A stretch of 64,000 bases of DNA from contig CAVOIW010000004.1 of assembly GCA_963695865.1 (NCBI GenBank), positions 295,320-359,319 of the forward strand, given 5' to 3'. A program made the translations under genes and the position numbers. Source of the stretch: an uncultured Actinomycetota bacterium. Lineage in GTDB: Bacteria > Actinomycetota > Actinomycetes > Mycobacteriales > Nakamurellaceae. Below, piece by piece: positions 44,831 to 48,921 of this stretch (within the stretch, counting starts at the first letter, position 1; each line of letters starts with the position of its first letter). The notes below the pieces were generated by a model that saw only the letters and a program-made list of their open reading frames with translations, had not been told where the DNA came from and ran no database searches.

Positions 44831-45586
44831 CTAGACACCTTTGACGAACAGGTAGACAGCGATCGCCACGCCGAGGGTCACCACGCTCCAACGGAGTGCG
44901 GTCTCGTTCACATGGCGGGCGATGCGAGCGCCCACGTATCCGCCGATCAGCGTGGCCGGTGCGGCTATCAGTACCGCCGTCCAGTTGACGGGGCCGAAGA
45001 AGCCGAAGATGAGCACGCTGATGGAGCAGTCGACGAACGACACGACGCCCTTCAGGGCGTTCAGCCTGCGAAGCGTGTCAGGGACGGTCAGGGCGAGCAC
45101 GCCGAGAATGATGACGCCGAGCGCGGCTCCGAAGTAGCCGCCGTAGACCGTCGCTGCGATCATCGCCGGGAATTGGACCGTCCAGATACGGCCACCCTCG
45201 CGAGGCTCACCGACCCGCTTCTTGATGGTGGGTTGGAAGGCCAGCATGCCGGCGGCGACGAGGACGAGAAGGGGGACGATCACGTCGAAGGCACCCGGCG
45301 GCGTGACGAGGAGCAGGACGCATCCGGTGGTCGTGCCGATGAGGGTGGCCAGTAGCAGGGGCCGCATCCTCGCCCGTTGTCCGACCAGTTCCGGGCGGAA
45401 CCCCAGCACGCCACCGGCGTACCCGGGCCAGGTCGCCACCGAGTTGGTTACGTTCGCGGCCAGGGGTGACATACCGGTGGCCAGCAGCGCCGGGAACAGG
45501 ATCAGCGACCCGCCGCCGGCGATCGAATTGATCGCTCCACACAGCAGCCCGGCGATCGCGATCAGCGCGACAGAGGAGGGACTCAC
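44831..45586 (-). CDS. TauE/SafE family sulfite/anion exporter (DUF81)
   Basis: Intact 251-aa ORF with 7-8 transmembrane segments, Gly-rich GGGS and PALL motifs. Confidence 0.8.
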   Translation of the reverse strand: MSPSSVALIAIAGLLCGAINSIAGGGSLILFPALLATGMSPLAANVTNSVATWPGYAGGVLGFRPELVGQRARMRPLLLATLIGTTTGCVLLLVTPPGAFDVIVPLLVLVAAGMLAFQPTIKKRVGEPREGGRIWTVQFPAMIAATVYGGYFGAALGVIILGVLALTVPDTLRRLNALKGVVSFVDCSISVLIFGFFGPVNWTAVLIAAPATLIGGYVGARIARHVNETALRWSVVTLGVAIAVYLFVKGV

Positions 45587-45646
45587 CGCGCCACCCTACG
45601 CAGCCGCCACTCGATGACGCGGGCCTGGGCGGTACACCTTCTACTG

Positions 45647-45660
45647 CGAACAAATGTTCG
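45647..45660. promoter_or_regulatory. LexA / Cheo-type SOS box CGAACAAATGTTCG overlapping the start codon of the 45654 gene
   Basis: Read directly: gcGAACaaATGTTCGa. It has the GAAC-N4-GTTC dyad and differs from the Gram-positive consensus CGAACATATGTTCG at one spacer base. It extends to the actinobacterial TCGAAC-N4-GTTCGA at 11 of 12 positions. The ATG of the ORF lies inside the box. Confidence 0.6.
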
Positions 45661-45983
45661 ATAACATTGATGTCGTGGAGAGCCCATCGCTGAACAGGTA
45701 CGTGAACGAGATCAACCCCAAGGTGGTCCCGACCAGGCCACAGGGGCGCGTCCCGGCTATCGCCAGGTTGGTTCTGGACGCGGCGGGCAGCTACGAGATG
45801 TGGCCATGCACTGCCCTGCGCTGGACGGAAGAAGCGGTCATGGTCACCATCCAGTTCACGCCGGGGGAGTCGCAGAGCGCACGCCCGCTGTGGCTGGCGG
45901 TCGACGACGTGGCGAGGGTGCTCCGGCAGGCGATACCTTCCGCACCCCAGCCGCCGAACGAAGCCGGGCGGTCGACCGACTGA
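45654..45983 (+). CDS. Hypothetical 109-aa protein, putatively LexA-regulated (SOS)
   Basis: ORF 45654..45983: MFDNIDVVESPSLNRYVNEINPKVVPTRPQGRVPAIARLVLDAAGSYEMWPCTALRWTEEAVMVTIQFTPGESQSARPLWLAVDDVARVLRQAIPSAPQPPNEAGRSTD. Third-position GC is high, consistent with coding. No family recognised. The start codon is embedded in a near-consensus SOS box. Confidence 0.55.
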   Translation: MFDNIDVVESPSLNRYVNEINPKVVPTRPQGRVPAIARLVLDAAGSYEMWPCTALRWTEEAVMVTIQFTPGESQSARPLWLAVDDVARVLRQAIPSAPQPPNEAGRSTD

Positions 45984-45998
45984 TACCAACCCGGCACC

Positions 45999-46448
45999 TC
46001 AGCGGGCCCTGCCCGCCCGAAGCGTCTCCATTGCCTTGTCCAACCGTCGCTGCCGCGTCTCCGGGGTCTTCGCGCCCTCGATCGCCAGTACGTGCGCCGA
46101 CTGATTGCTGTAAGACAGGGTCTCGAAGAATTTCCTGACCACCGGTTCGGCGGCCAGCCGTTCGGCGAAGTCGGCTGGCACCGTGACTTCGCGTGGTGCG
46201 TCATCGATCTCGACGCGGACGTCGACCTCGTCACCCGCCGTCAGTCCGGTGATCTTCCTGATCTCCGCGCTGACCGGGATGAGAAAGCGCTCACCGCGCG
46301 GCGCGATGGTGCTCCGGTAGGTATGGCCGTTGATCGTCACCGACACCGCCGGCTTCTTGCCCCGGCCCAATGCCGTGACCACCTCGGGTGGCACCAGGAG
46401 GCCGGTGGCCGTCTTGCCTTCCAACTGCAACGTGGTTCGGAAGTTCAT
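45999..46448 (-). CDS. DUF1905 plus YdeI/OmpD-associated domain protein
   Basis: Intact 149-aa ORF. MNFRTTLQLEGKTATGLLVPPEVVTALGRGKKPAVSVTINGHTYRSTIAPRGERFLIPVSAEIRKITGLTAGDEVDVRVEIDDAPREV (DUF1905), then ...ADFAERLAAEPVVRKFFETLSYSNQSAHVLAIEGAKTPETRQRRLDKAMETLRAGRAR (YdeI-like). It starts 15 bp after the LigD-Pol stop on the same strand. Confidence 0.8.
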   Translation of the reverse strand: MNFRTTLQLEGKTATGLLVPPEVVTALGRGKKPAVSVTINGHTYRSTIAPRGERFLIPVSAEIRKITGLTAGDEVDVRVEIDDAPREVTVPADFAERLAAEPVVRKFFETLSYSNQSAHVLAIEGAKTPETRQRRLDKAMETLRAGRAR

Positions 46449-46463
46449 GCCGGGAGTATGCCG

Positions 46464-47432
46464 CTACTCGGGTACATCTTCCGCACCGGCCAATTCGTCT
46501 CGTTCCGCCCACTCGATGAGTGGGTCGATGGAGAACACCGCTTCGTCGATCCCGGCATGCAGATCGCCGAGTTCGGCGAACCTCGCCGGAACGGTGCCCA
46601 TCGTGCACTCCTGGGGCTGCACCTCGTCGACCTCCGACCACGAGATCGGCGTGGACACCGTCCCTCTCGGTACTCCCCGCACCGAGTACGCGCTGGCAAT
46701 CGTGTGGTCCCGGGCGTTCTGGTTGTAGTCGACGAACAACTTGCGCGGGTCCCGGTCCTTTCGCCACCAGGTGGTGGTCACGTCGTCCGGAATGCGCCGC
46801 TCGACCTCACGGGCGAAGGCCAGGGCCCCGCGGCGGACGTCCTTGAATCCCCACTGCGGGTCGATCCGGACGTAGACGTGCATGCCGTGACCGCCAGAGG
46901 TCTTCGGCCAGCCGACGGCACCGATTTCATCCAGGAGGTCGTGCACGACATGCGCTACCCGGCGCACGGTGTCGAACGGGCAGTCCGGGCCGGGATCCAG
47001 GTCGATCCGCCATTCGTCAGGGCGCTCGGTGTCTGCCCGCCTGGAGTTCCAGGGATGGAATTCGACGCAGGACATCTGGACCGACCAGATCACGTCCGCA
47101 AGCCGGGTCACGCACAATTCGTCTGCGTTGCGGCCGGACGGAAAGTCCACGCGGACCGTTTCGATCCACTCCGGTGCGCCCCGGGGAATTCTTTTCTGGT
47201 GCACCTTTTCGCCGGCGAGCCCGTCCGGGAAACGATGCATCATGCACGGACGTTCGCGCAGCGCACGGACGATGCCGTCCCCGACGGACAGGTAGTAATT
47301 CGCGAGATCCAGCTTGGTGAAGCCGCTTTCGGGAAAGTACACGCGATCGGGATTGGAGATCCGCACGTCGACGTCGCCCACCTTCAGTTCCACTGCCGGT
47401 GAAGTGCCGCGGGCCGCCATGCCGTCCAACAT
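46464..47432 (-). CDS. Standalone LigD polymerase / primase-polymerase domain protein (NHEJ polymerase, archaeo-eukaryotic primase fold)
   Basis: ORF 46464..47537. Probable start is the ATG at 47430-47432 (MLDGMAARG...). ...DVDVRISNPDRVYFPESGFTKLDLANYYLSVGDGIVRALRERPCMMHRFPDG...WIETVRVDFPSGRNADELCVTRLADVIWSVQMSCVEFHPWNSRRAD...GGHGMHVYVRI...KLFVDYNQNARDHTIASAYSVRG matches LigD-Pol (PolDom) motifs. It starts 10 bp after the dinB stop. Confidence 0.85.
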   Translation of the reverse strand: MLDGMAARGTSPAVELKVGDVDVRISNPDRVYFPESGFTKLDLANYYLSVGDGIVRALRERPCMMHRFPDGLAGEKVHQKRIPRGAPEWIETVRVDFPSGRNADELCVTRLADVIWSVQMSCVEFHPWNSRRADTERPDEWRIDLDPGPDCPFDTVRRVAHVVHDLLDEIGAVGWPKTSGGHGMHVYVRIDPQWGFKDVRRGALAFAREVERRIPDDVTTTWWRKDRDPRKLFVDYNQNARDHTIASAYSVRGVPRGTVSTPISWSEVDEVQPQECTMGTVPARFAELGDLHAGIDEAVFSIDPLIEWAERDELAGAEDVPE

Positions 47433-47442
47433 ATCTGGCCGC

Positions 47443-48642
47443 TCAGTCCGGCAGCATCGGCATGGCCCAGCCGGAGTCTCGGCCCAGCAGGACGCCGCGA
47501 GTGAGCGCCGCGCTGCCAAATCTGTGCCGCACGTCATCCAAGGCAGAATCCAGCGCTGTGGCGCTGAACTCGCGGAACGGCAACTCCAATTGAACGGCGT
47601 CGTCTTCGTGCCGGAAGCCTGCCACTGATATTCCTACCAACGTCAGGCCGCGTTCGGAGACCAGCGGTTCGGCGGCCGCCATCAGTTCGCGAATCGCGAG
47701 CAGGATCTCCGGGGTCTGTGAGGTGGCGCGAGGGAGTGTGTGCGATCGGGTGGCCCTGGAGAAATCGTCGAATCGAAGGCGCAGCATCACCGTGCGCCCC
47801 CGCCGGTCGGCATCCCGCATTCGCCTGGTCACCCGATCCACCAGGCCGAGCAGGACGGCATCGAGGTCGGCTGTGCTGCGCCGGGTTCGCCCGAGAGCGC
47901 GCTGCGCACCGATGGATGATCTGCGCCTTCCGACCTGAACCCGCCGCGGGTCCTGATTGTGCGCCAGCGCGTGCAGGTGCCGGCCCGACCCTTTACCCAG
48001 CATGGCGACCAAGGTCGATTCGCCCAACTCCGCGACCTGACCGACCGTGCCGATGCCGTGGGCGTGCAGTTTGCCGGCCGTGACCTTGCCGACCCCCCAC
48101 AGTCTCTCGACCGCGAGCGGGTGCAGGAATTCGAACTCCGCGTCGGGCGGAACCTCGAGCAGGCCATCGGGTTTGGCCACTCCGCTGGCTACTTTGGCGA
48201 GGAATTTGGTGCGCGCGACGCCAACGGTGATGTTGAGTCCCACTTCGTCGCGTACCCGCCGACGCAGCCGGACCGCGATGTCGACCGGCGAACCCGCAAC
48301 GCGGCGCAGGCCGCCGACATCCAAAAAGGCCTCGTCGATCGAGATGCCCTCGACCAAGGGCGTCGTCTGCTCGAACACTTCGAAGACAGCTCGGCTCGCC
48401 GCGGTATAGGCCGAGAACCTCGGCTCGACCACGACGGCATCGGGGCAGGCCTGACGAGCTTGGAATCCGCTCATCGCCGACCGCACTCCGAACGCCTTGG
48501 CCTCATAACTGGCCGCCAGCACGACACCGCCGCCGACGATCACCGGCCGCCCGCGCAACGCCGGGTTGTCCCGCTGCTCGACCGAGGCGAAGAAGGCATC
48601 GAGGTCGGCATGCAGGATCGTTGCGTGGGCGGACACGAACAT
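47443..48642 (-). CDS. dinB: DNA polymerase IV (Y-family translesion polymerase)
   Basis: Intact 399-aa ORF. MFVSAHATILHADLDAFFASVEQRDNPALRGRPVIVGG...ISIDEAFLDV... are the Y-family palm motifs (DxDAFFASVE, SIDEAFLD). The ATG is embedded in an SOS box. Confidence 0.9.
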   Translation of the reverse strand: MFVSAHATILHADLDAFFASVEQRDNPALRGRPVIVGGGVVLAASYEAKAFGVRSAMSGFQARQACPDAVVVEPRFSAYTAASRAVFEVFEQTTPLVEGISIDEAFLDVGGLRRVAGSPVDIAVRLRRRVRDEVGLNITVGVARTKFLAKVASGVAKPDGLLEVPPDAEFEFLHPLAVERLWGVGKVTAGKLHAHGIGTVGQVAELGESTLVAMLGKGSGRHLHALAHNQDPRRVQVGRRRSSIGAQRALGRTRRSTADLDAVLLGLVDRVTRRMRDADRRGRTVMLRLRFDDFSRATRSHTLPRATSQTPEILLAIRELMAAAEPLVSERGLTLVGISVAGFRHEDDAVQLELPFREFSATALDSALDDVRHRFGSAALTRGVLLGRDSGWAMPMLPD

Positions 48643-48649
48643 ATGTTCG
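48636..48649. promoter_or_regulatory. LexA / Cheo-type SOS box CGAACATATGTTCG (perfect palindrome) overlapping the dinB start codon
   Basis: Read directly at 48636-48649. It is identical to the Gram-positive Cheo-box consensus and matches the actinobacterial TCGAAC-N4-GTTCGA core GAAC-N4-GTTC. The dinB ATG (complement of 48640-48642) sits in the spacer. The plus-strand ORF 48655..48909 starts 6 bp to the right. Confidence 0.65.
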
Positions 48650-48921
48650 CATGAATGAGGCGTGATGGGAATGATCCAGACGCATCCTGCGCCGCACTCG
48701 TGCGTCCTTCGGGCATGAGTTCGACACAGACCACAGCCCAGAGATCACTCCACCACGCCGCCGTCAGATTCGTCCCCGCAACGGCGAACGAGCGTCGATC
48801 CCACCTGCGCGCCGTGCCCAACCATCTCGCCGTGGCGCCACTGGTGCAGCCACAGGCACCGGAGTGCGACGACAATTGCCATTACTGCCAGGGCCCCGAA
48901 ACCGACTGACTGGCGCGAGGC

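What the first reader, a model, noticed from the sequence alone, without database searches (positions are those of the whole stretch)
45647..45983. Second SOS box with the same start-codon-embedded layout on an uncharacterised 109-aa protein: candidate new DNA-damage-inducible gene
CGAACAAATGTTCG (45647-45660) differs from the dinB box at one spacer base and again contains the ATG of its ORF. Both genes start Met-Phe because the box encodes aTGTTCg. The ORF has coding-like third-position GC, and I recognise no family. It sits 14 kb of intact sequence away from dinB, yet inside the same repair-rich neighbourhood. Two boxes sharing this unusual box-over-ATG arrangement suggest leaderless, LexA-occluded starts. 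That makes this small protein a good candidate for an undescribed SOS effector, for example a division or repair modulator.
Basis: partly seen in the sequence, partly recalled or inferred. Interest (0 to 1): 0.7.

Follow-up and report, generated by a model that had tools for sequence, protein, structure and literature searches.

The report
LexA-controlled leaderless gene, small beta-barrel protein

Summary
The box is real. GCGAACAAATGTTCGA lies at 45646-45661 and matches the actinobacterial LexA operator at 11 of 12 specified positions. One box alone is not significant, since about one GAAC-N4-GTTC is expected per window. However, it sits at the same place in 11 of 11 Nakamurella-clade loci, while the DNA upstream of it is unconserved.

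The ATG inside the box is not the start codon: it is out of frame in 5 of 11 loci and is CTG in a sixth. Every locus has a TAnnnT -10 hexamer directly after the box, then an ATG or GTG 6-7 nt later. The gene is therefore leaderless, starts at GTG 45675 and encodes 102 aa. LexA would cover -29 to -14.

The dinB box is 3 kb away, not 14 kb.

The ORF is under strong purifying selection (dN/dS about 0.08). It folds as a soluble SH3/Tudor-like beta-barrel and matches no Pfam, NCBIfam, PHROG or PADLOC family.

Distant relatives (88 clusters) occur on actinobacterial chromosomes, plasmids and integrated elements. Most carry the same box-plus-leaderless layout. Four sit next to orphan imuA' genes.

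The best reading is a new SOS-regulon family acting as a non-catalytic accessory factor in damage tolerance. The function itself is inferred, not shown.

The parts
45646..45661 (+). 16-bp SOS (LexA) operator GCGAACAAATGTTCGA. It spans -29 to -14 relative to the inferred transcription/translation start.
   Evidence: 11 of 12 specified positions match tCGAAC-N4-GTTCGa. The S. venezuelae ChIP-seq motif is tCGAAC-N4-GNNCGa (PMC9380542). Present at the same position in 11 of 11 Nakamurella-clade loci; L008 has GTAC in the left half.
45654..45656 (+). ATG inside the operator. It is not the conserved start.
   Evidence: Out of frame with the ORF in L002, L004, L005, L008 and L019, and CTG in L001. 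About a third of database homologues are called with a spurious 'MFD...' extension.
45662..45667 (+). -10 promoter hexamer TAACAT (TAnnnT), directly abutting the operator.
   Evidence: TAnnnT is invariant at this position in 11 of 11 loci (TAACAT, TACAAT, TACGAT, TAGGGT, TACAGT, TATAGT, TAGAGT, TAGACT, TACGCT). The function is inferred from the mycobacterial-type -10 consensus. The sigma-70 scan that requires a -35 element found nothing.
45675..45677 (+). GTG start codon, inferred to be +1 of a leaderless mRNA.
   Evidence: An ATG or GTG lies 6-7 nt after the -10 hexamer in all 11 loci, with no room for a Shine-Dalgarno sequence. The invariant residues R, Y, N, E lie just downstream, so no later start is possible.
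45675..45983 (+). Coding sequence of the 102-aa protein (stop codon included).
   Evidence: Median dN/dS of the 77-codon core is 0.08, with dS about 1, over 45 pairs. GC3 is 0.86. No Rfam match.
45696..45749 (+). Conserved N-terminal arm (residues 8-25, RYxNExxPxxVPxRPQGR). It is ordered in the model but is mostly not regular secondary structure.
   Evidence: Invariant or near-invariant columns. pLDDT is about 93 for residues 11-30 in the second model.
45750..45917 (+). Five-stranded SH3/Tudor-like beta-barrel core (residues 26-81). It carries the family-invariant R31, R49, W50, W73 and D78.
48635..48650 (-). Companion SOS operator at the start of dinB (GCGAACATATGTTCGT on the - strand), 3 kb away. 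It heads the convergent dinB / ligD-PrimPol / ydeI gene string (45999-48642, - strand).
   Evidence: conserved in 9 of the 11 Nakamurella-clade loci. The held sequence of L018 ends before dinB, and L007 shows neither the box nor dinB. The same synteny is seen in L019, and partly in L018.

Best explanation
The feature is a LexA-repressed, sigma-A-type, leaderless promoter driving a 102-aa gene (GTG 45675 to stop 45983).

Regulation. In undamaged cells a LexA dimer on GCGAACAAATGTTCGA (-29 to -14) would block RNA polymerase from the abutting -10 hexamer TAACAT. After DNA damage, RecA-stimulated LexA self-cleavage frees the promoter. The mRNA then starts at the GTG and is translated without a leader.

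Product. The protein is a soluble, non-catalytic SH3/Tudor-like beta-barrel with a conserved N-terminal arm. It belongs to an unannotated actinobacterial family.

Proposed function. It most likely acts as a small accessory or adaptor subunit in SOS damage tolerance. [quoted passage not shown] This would be analogous to UmuD', YolD/YqjX and standalone ImuB-C.

What is shown: the operator, its conservation, the position of the start codon, purifying selection, the fold class and the genomic associations.

What is inferred: LexA binding, damage induction, leaderless initiation and the accessory-factor role.
For: Regulatory layout:
- The box, the abutting TAnnnT and an ATG/GTG 6-7 nt later occur in 11 of 11 Nakamurella-clade loci. 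The 45 nt upstream are unconserved.
- The box stays with the small gene even where the upstream neighbour differs.
- The same logic recurs in distant relatives at 30-45% identity:
  - L015, L016, L020 and L025: box, then 6-7 nt, then TACCAT or TACCCT, then 6 nt, then the start (GTG in L015, L020 and L025; ATG in L016).
  - L026, L021 and the second paralogue in L016: box abutting the -10.
  - L011: the -10 TAGACT lies upstream and the GTG lies inside the box.
  - L017: the box heads an imuA'-plus-small-gene operon.

Real gene: dN/dS is 0.08. 43 columns are invariant among 30 homologues.

Context:
- In Nakamurella the conserved order is TauE | small gene -> | <- YdeI <- LigD PrimPol <- DinB, with a second conserved SOS box at dinB (L018 shows the part up to YdeI).
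- This DinB carries a clamp motif QLELPF, a RecA-NT-like motif and a conserved tail GRDxGxxMPMLPD.
- In L015, L016, L017 and L027 the gene is adjacent to an ImuA' homologue (NF058630 at 135, 157 and 115 bits against a cut-off of 65; L027 by tblastn and HMM). They share an SOS box or an operon.
- ATP-dependent ligase genes (L015, L027) and an SRAP gene (L016) lie nearby.

Precedent: small beta-barrel SOS subunits of Y-family and DnaE2 mutasomes are established (PMC6511836, PMC3765255, PMC12926913).
Against: - No experiment is available: no LexA binding, transcription start or induction data for Nakamurella.
- The -10 assignment rests on a consensus. The strict sigma-70 scan found nothing.
- imuA' adjacency holds in only 4 of about 12 independent distant loci, and in no Nakamurella locus.
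- One subfamily, on Brachybacterium-type plasmids and a T4SS/TraG-bearing element near ssb, has no SOS box.
- No sequence or profile link exists to any known accessory subunit.
- The SH3-like fold is generic and does not indicate a partner.
- The conserved DinB tail may be a feature of this DinB subfamily in general. That would make a partner specific to Nakamurella unnecessary.
Confidence: 0.55

Rival explanations
1. SOS-induced cell-division inhibitor. The small protein would be the Nakamurella functional analogue of SulA, YneA, ChiZ or DivS and would delay septation while DNA is repaired.
For: It is a small, lineage-restricted, LexA-boxed gene with no known family. SOS division inhibitors are typically non-homologous between lineages (own knowledge). 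Relatives on plasmids and prophage-like elements would parallel prophage-encoded inhibitors such as Kil, DicB and SfiC (own knowledge).
Against: There is no membrane segment and no LysM or SulA Pfam match. The membrane-type inhibitors YneA, ChiZ, SidA and DidA have such features (own knowledge). The neighbours are repair and translesion genes, not division genes. The gene is not next to lexA in any locus seen. The core is unusually well conserved.
Confidence: 0.15
2. Mobile-element module. The family would be primarily a LexA-sensing switch or establishment factor of plasmids and integrative elements. Examples are an antirepressor like Tum or Gifsy Ant, or a RecA/SOS modulator like PsiB or DinI. 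The Nakamurella copy would be a domesticated remnant.
For: Distant members lie on Xylanimonas, Paraoerskovia, Brachybacterium and Cellulosimicrobium plasmids. Others lie in regions carrying recombinase/resolvase, excisionase-like HTH_17, tail-protein, TraG/T4SS, SSB or ParA genes. A LexA-boxed small gene is the classic layout of SOS-controlled antirepressors (own knowledge).
Against: The Nakamurella copy is chromosomal, syntenic across species and under strong purifying selection, with no mobile-element genes around it. An IS in L019 is an insertion. There are no tblastn hits in 50,697 phage genomes and no PHROG match. No conserved repressor gene partner was found. The recurring partner is imuA'.
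Confidence: 0.15
3. Divergent standalone ImuB-C (Pfam DUF6504) protein. This would make it a member of the already described small SOS accessory family that accompanies DinB, LexA, SRAP and Ku/ligase.
For: The published context profile of standalone ImuB-C matches closely: DinB, LexA control, SRAP and ATP-dependent ligase. So do its features: small, all-beta, a conserved C-terminal Trp and two conserved basic residues (PMC3765255). Standalone ImuB-C proteins exist in Actinobacteria, and ImuB-C contributes to ImuA binding (PMC12926913).
Against: None of 58 family members hits PF20114 or any recurrent Pfam family at E up to 5. hhalign of the family profile against an alignment of 31 Deinococcus DUF6504 proteins gives probability 0.05%. 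ImuB-C is reported as a beta-barrel that is not SH3-like (PMC12926913), whereas this protein matches SH3/Tudor barrels.
Confidence: 0.05
4. Chance dyad or wrong target. The palindrome would be fortuitous or would serve the divergent TauE gene, and the ORF would be a high-GC artefact.
For: About one GAAC-N4-GTTC is expected per 64 kb by chance. High-GC DNA produces long shadow ORFs, for example 45207-45989 on the - strand. The TauE start lies about 60 nt from the box.
Against: The box is conserved at a fixed distance from the small gene in 11 of 11 loci. These include four whose upstream sequence does not match the TauE-start region of the window. dN/dS is 0.08 in the + frame. There are 88 homologous clusters.
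Confidence: 0.02

Closest known systems
Actinobacterial LexA/SOS regulon genes (operator TCGAAC-N4-GTTCGA; M. tuberculosis, C. glutamicum, S. venezuelae)
   Same: The 16-bp palindrome is the same and overlaps the core promoter. The target set nearby is of the same kind (Y-family polymerase, end-joining enzyme). The S. venezuelae ChIP-seq motif is tCGAAC-N4-GNNCGa (PMC9380542).
   Different: This target gene family is not in any described LexA regulon that I could find. It has no Pfam or NCBIfam model. The operator abuts the -10 of a leaderless gene at a fixed spacing.
UmuD' (Pol V) and YolD/YqjX, the small SH3-like subunits of Y-family polymerases
   Same: All are small, SOS-controlled, non-catalytic and built on an SH3-like beta-barrel core with an N-terminal arm. 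All are encoded near a Y-family polymerase that has a RecA-NT motif and a conserved C-terminal tail (PMC6511836 and PMC12926913; for this DinB).
Standalone ImuB-C (DUF6504, for example D. deserti Deide_1p01890 and G. sulfurreducens GSU0042)
   Same: Both are proteins of about 80-100 aa, all-beta and LexA-controlled. Both are found with DinB, SRAP, ligase and ImuA-type genes (PMC3765255, PMC8072749, PMC12926913).
   Different: There is no profile-level relationship. ImuB-C is reported to have a different barrel type. This family pairs with orphan imuA' genes that have no imuB or dnaE2 annotated or called within the few kb examined.
Tudor-like RNA-polymerase-interacting domains (CarD, Mfd RID, PcrA/UvrD C-terminus, DinX C-terminus DUF3553)
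   Same: The SH3/Tudor barrel class is the same. The precedent is bacterial and repair-linked, and one example is fused to a mycobacterial Y-family polymerase (PMC6511836).

Membership tests
LexA (SOS) regulon, actinobacterial type | Operator matching TCGAAC-N4-GTTCGA | tested here: met
   GCGAACAAATGTTCGA at 45646-45661 matches 11 of 12 specified positions. The motif is from PMC9380542.
LexA (SOS) regulon, actinobacterial type | Operator overlaps the core promoter or transcription start of the regulated gene | tested here: met
   The box spans -29 to -14 and abuts the conserved TAnnnT hexamer. The promoter itself is inferred from consensus and was not mapped.
LexA (SOS) regulon, actinobacterial type | Operator conserved in orthologous promoters (phylogenetic footprint) | tested here: met
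   Found in 11 of 11 Nakamurella-clade loci, with unconserved flanks. It recurs in 8 independent distant lineages.
LexA (SOS) regulon, actinobacterial type | LexA binding in vitro or in vivo, and RecA/LexA-dependent induction by DNA damage | not testable with these tools
   This needs EMSA, SPR or ChIP and RNA-seq with and without mitomycin C in Nakamurella.
Leaderless actinobacterial genes | -10 hexamer TAnnnT ending 6-7 nt before an ATG/GTG, with no Shine-Dalgarno sequence | tested here: met
   TAACAT, then 7 nt, then GTG in the window. The spacing is 6-7 nt in all 11 loci.
Leaderless actinobacterial genes | Mapped 5' end coincides with the start codon | not testable with these tools
   No transcriptome data are available.
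ImuB-C / DUF6504 (PF20114) | Sequence or profile similarity to the family | tested here: not met
   None of 58 members hits PF20114 at E up to 5. hhalign against 31 Deinococcus DUF6504 proteins gives probability 0.05%. That alignment is taxonomically narrow.
ImuB-C / DUF6504 (PF20114) | SOS-linked context with DinB, LexA, SRAP, ligase or ImuA | tested here: met
   The context definition is from PMC3765255.
ImuB-C / DUF6504 (PF20114) | Beta-barrel fold of the ImuB-C type (reported as not SH3-like) | tested here: inconclusive
   Our model is SH3/Tudor-like. No ImuB-C model was available for a direct comparison. The statement about the ImuB-C fold is from PMC12926913.
UmuD (Peptidase_S24) / YolD (PF08863) small polymerase subunits | Family HMM match | tested here: not met
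   No Pfam or NCBIfam hit.
UmuD (Peptidase_S24) / YolD (PF08863) small polymerase subunits | SH3-like beta core plus N-terminal arm, with SOS control | tested here: met
   This is a resemblance of kind, not homology.
SH3/Tudor-like small beta-barrel fold | Five-stranded barrel superposable on Tudor, PWWP, KOW and integrase-CTD domains | tested here: met
SOS cell-division inhibitors (SulA, YneA, ChiZ, DivS) | SulA fold, or a membrane anchor or LysM domain | tested here: not met
   No Pfam hit and no hydrophobic segment. An effect on division was not tested.

The most novel reading that the evidence does not exclude
The family is a previously unrecognised fourth type of small regulatory subunit of SOS mutasomes, alongside UmuD', YolD/YqjX and ImuB-C. 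[quoted passage not shown] The 'orphan' imuA' plus small-gene pairs on Micrococcales plasmids would then be portable, LexA-gated mutagenesis or damage-tolerance modules that plug into host polymerases.
Probability: 0.25. Interest if true: 0.75.

Novelty: new member of a known kind. Interest (0 to 1): 0.55.

Why it matters
LexA regulons outside the model organisms still hold unannotated genes, and small SOS proteins often act as control points for mutagenesis, division or RecA activity.

This family has a clear comparative signature:
- an operator, a -10 hexamer and a leaderless start at fixed spacing;
- a confident fold model;
- repeated linkage to imuA', dinB, ligD/ligase and SRAP on both chromosomes and plasmids.

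That makes it a concrete, testable candidate for a missing accessory factor of actinobacterial damage-induced mutagenesis. That pathway is relevant to the evolution of drug resistance in relatives such as mycobacteria.

There is also an annotation lesson. Because the Gram-positive/actinobacterial operator consensus contains ATGTTCG, gene callers often start SOS genes inside the box and produce false 'MFD/MFE' N-termini.

Tried and rejected
- Family libraries. Pfam, NCBIfam, PHROGs and PADLOC scans of the protein and of distant members gave no meaningful family.
- PDB sequence search with the family profile gave nothing below E 0.5.
- Phage collections. tblastn against 50,697 phage genomes with three different members found no match. 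Foldseek against viral models gave only a marginal hit to an uncharacterised Arthrobacter phage protein (E 1.4e-3).
- AFDB fold libraries were unavailable.
- The search for related loci with the broad alignment failed because no stretch was conserved enough. I used exact-protein contig look-ups instead.
- ImuB-C membership. The alignment in the supplement of PMC3765255 lay beyond the stored text. I located D. deserti ImuB-C on plasmid 1, collected its relatives and compared profiles. The result was negative.
- imuA' in the window or the Nakamurella loci. tblastn found none.
- A second dinB 14 kb away. There is none.
- ncRNA. There is no Rfam match in 45300-46200.
- Strict sigma-70 and terminator scan. 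No sites were found. This is uninformative for actinobacterial promoters that lack a -35 element.
- P0029 (N. panacisegetis) contig look-up. Not on record.

Full report
**Observation.** The sequence CGAACAAATGTTCG is at 45647-45660. Only one other perfect CGAAC-N4-GTTCG occurs in the window, at 48636-48649, and it differs at one spacer base. That second box lies on the start of the only dinB in the window (47443-48642, - strand). The two boxes are therefore 3 kb apart, not 14 kb. A perfect GAAC-N4-GTTC is expected about once per shuffled window (mean 1.07; 29 of 100 shuffles had 2 or more). The site cannot be called significant on its own.

**The gene is real.**
- The 109-aa ORF has no Pfam or NCBIfam match.
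- It has 29 close homologues (66-92% identity across the alignment) in Nakamurella and related metagenome-assembled genomes, with 43 invariant columns.
- For the 77-codon core in ten loci, the median dN is 0.086, dS is 0.97 and dN/dS is 0.08.
- GC3 is 0.86.
- There is no Rfam match.

**Where the gene starts.** I collected eleven orthologous loci: the window, L001-L008, L018 and L019. I anchored them on the box.
- The 45 nt upstream of the box share no conserved column.
- GAAC-N4-GTTCGA is conserved in all eleven (L008 has GTAC in the left half).
- It is always followed directly by a TAnnnT hexamer, and 6-7 nt later by an ATG or GTG that opens the conserved reading frame.
- The NTG inside the box is out of frame with that ORF in five loci (L002, L004, L005, L008, L019) and is CTG in L001.
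- The invariant R-Y-x-N-E motif lies just after the downstream start, so no later start is possible.

The gene therefore begins at GTG 45675 and encodes 102 aa. The layout is a -10 hexamer, a 6-7 nt gap with no ribosome-binding site, and then the start codon. That is the signature of actinobacterial leaderless genes (established knowledge; not mapped here).

It explains why about a third of database homologues are called with a false MFD... extension.

**Mechanism of regulation (inferred).** The 16-mer GCGAACAAATGTTCGA (45646-45661) matches the actinobacterial LexA motif at 11 of 12 specified positions. The S. venezuelae ChIP-seq consensus is tCGAAC-N4-GNNCGa (PMC9380542). The 16-mer spans -29 to -14, directly against the -10 hexamer TAACAT (45662-45667). 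Bound LexA would exclude RNA polymerase, and LexA cleavage after damage would release a leaderless mRNA.

The box belongs to this gene and not to the divergent TauE gene. It keeps its spacing in the four loci whose upstream sequence does not match the TauE-start region of the window.

**The wider family.** A profile search of 1.84 billion representatives found 88 clusters, mostly proteins of 80-140 aa. A second indexed search named hosts in Luteimicrobium, Haloactinopolyspora, Isoptericola and Brachybacterium. tblastn found copies on Xylanimonas, Paraoerskovia and Brachybacterium plasmids. None matches Pfam, PHROGs or PADLOC.

DNA around thirteen distant members shows the following.

| Loci | Layout |
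|---|---|
| L015, L016, L020, L025 | SOS box, 6-7 nt, TACCAT or TACCCT, 6 nt, start codon |
| L026, L021, second paralogue in L016 | Box abutting the -10, as in Nakamurella |
| L011 | TAGACT upstream of the box, with the GTG inside the box at leaderless distance |
| L017 | Box in front of a two-gene operon |
| L009 | Degenerate left half-site |
| L013/L023, L022, L024 (Brachybacterium-type subfamily on plasmids and a T4SS/TraG-bearing element, near ssb) | No box |

LexA control of a leaderless start is thus an ancestral trait retained across much of the family.

**Context and likely role.** In Nakamurella the order is conserved: TauE, then the small gene, then convergently YdeI(DUF1905/OmdA) <- LigD PrimPol <- DinB. 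The second SOS box lies at dinB (L018 is held only as far as YdeI). This DinB has a clamp motif (QLELPF), a RecA-NT-like motif (ALDxALDxVRHRFGxxALTRG) and a conserved terminal tail (GRDxGxxMPMLPD).

In four distant loci the family member lies next to an ImuA' homologue:
- divergently, sharing the box, in L015, L016 and L027;
- downstream in the same operon in L017.

The NF058630 scores are 135, 157 and 115 bits against a cut-off of 65. ATP-dependent ligase genes (L015, L027) and an SRAP gene (L016) lie nearby, and no imuB or dnaE2 is annotated or called in the few kb examined around these genes.

The published literature describes small beta-barrel SOS subunits that regulate Y-family and DnaE2 mutasomes: UmuD', YolD/YqjX and standalone ImuB-C. 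Their contexts are closely similar (DinB, LexA, SRAP, Ku/ligase, ImuA) (PMC6511836, PMC3765255, PMC12926913, PMC8072749).

I tested membership in ImuB-C (Pfam DUF6504) directly.
- No member hits PF20114.
- A profile-profile comparison with 31 Deinococcus DUF6504 proteins is null, at probability 0.05%.
- ImuB-C is reported to be a barrel that is not SH3-like.

So this protein resembles that class of factors but is not a detectable member of any of them.

**Rivals.**
- A division inhibitor cannot be excluded, but it lacks the usual membrane or LysM features and has the wrong neighbours.
- A mobile-element switch (antirepressor or PsiB-like) fits the plasmid and integrative-element copies. It fits the syntenic, strongly constrained chromosomal copy less well, and no repressor partner recurs.
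- Chance, or regulation of TauE, is refuted by the comparative data.

**Verdict.** Two of its details are wrong: the start codon inside the box, and the 14 kb distance. The regulatory reading is well supported by comparative evidence but untested experimentally. The accessory-factor function is an inference from fold class and repeated gene neighbourhoods. Novelty is a new gene family within a known kind of system, of moderate interest.

Noticed in passing
window 48634-48650 (- strand), dinB start: The dinB box is conserved in 9 of the 11 Nakamurella-clade loci. L018 ends before dinB, and L007 shows neither the box nor dinB. The codon inside the box varies: ATG in most, GTG in L001 and L004, ACG in L008. 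The invariant candidate start is the GTG two codons later (F-V-S). The left half-site GAACAT lies exactly 6 nt before that GTG and could itself act as the -10 hexamer of a leaderless dinB.
   Followed up: partly
window 45999-48642 (- strand): dinB, a standalone LigD PrimPol-domain gene and a YdeI/DUF1905-OmdA gene form a tight same-strand string behind the dinB SOS box. The listed LigD ORF overlaps the dinB 3' end. The YdeI stop codon is 15 bp from the small gene's stop. This is possibly an SOS-controlled operon coupling translesion synthesis and end-joining. The order is conserved in L019, where an IS is inserted.
   Followed up: partly
window 47443-47560 (DinB C-terminus): This DinB carries a clamp-binding motif QLELPF, a RecA-N-terminus-like motif (ALDSALDDVRHRFGSAALTRG) and a highly conserved tail GRDxGxxMPMLPD. 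That is the architecture reported for Y-family polymerases that bind RecA and a small subunit.
   Followed up: partly
L015 4190-4795, L016 3178-3870, L017 3282-3953, L027 3839-4546: 'Orphan' imuA' genes lie on Micrococcales plasmids and elements. They are SOS-boxed, and no imuB or dnaE2 is annotated or called in the few kb examined. Each is paired with a member of the small beta-barrel family. ATP-dependent ligase genes (L015, L027) and an SRAP gene (L016) lie close by.
   Followed up: partly
L016 6079-6375 (- strand) and L027 3498-3791 (- strand): A second, more divergent subfamily (motif IPVRxW...AxAW..RxVxVxY...AWxWAxAVxRR; HMM E 8e-6 and 5.5e-3). The pXCEL01 copy has its own perfect box TCGAACATACGTTCGA, then TAGAAT, then 6 nt, then ATG.
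   Followed up: partly
L029 4600-5806 (Rhodococcus sp. 008 plasmid pR8C1): An SOS box ATCGAACTTGTGTTCGA followed by TACTCT precedes an ImuA'-like gene (270 aa). A translationally coupled 110-aa protein follows it. The family HMM does not detect that protein, so it may be another analogous small partner.
   Followed up: no
P0046 (236 aa): One family member contains two tandem copies of the domain. Several long hits in the representative search (P0030, P0035, P0059) are repetitive proteins matching only a 25-30 residue stretch and look spurious.
   Followed up: no
window 45207-45989 (- strand) and 45791-46234 (- strand): Long antisense 'shadow' ORFs (260 and 147 aa) overlap the real gene. These are typical high-GC artefacts and are not supported by the codon-level conservation of the + frame.
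   Followed up: partly
S. venezuelae plasmid pSVJI1 (PMC9380542, Table 1): Published ChIP-seq and RNA-seq data show a LexA-bound, MMC-induced operon made of a hypothetical protein (pvnz_37140, box at -14) and DNA polymerase IV. This is another small unknown gene paired with dinB under LexA. tblastn of three family members against the plasmid collection returned no Streptomyces record, but I did not confirm that pSVJI1 is in that collection.
   Followed up: partly
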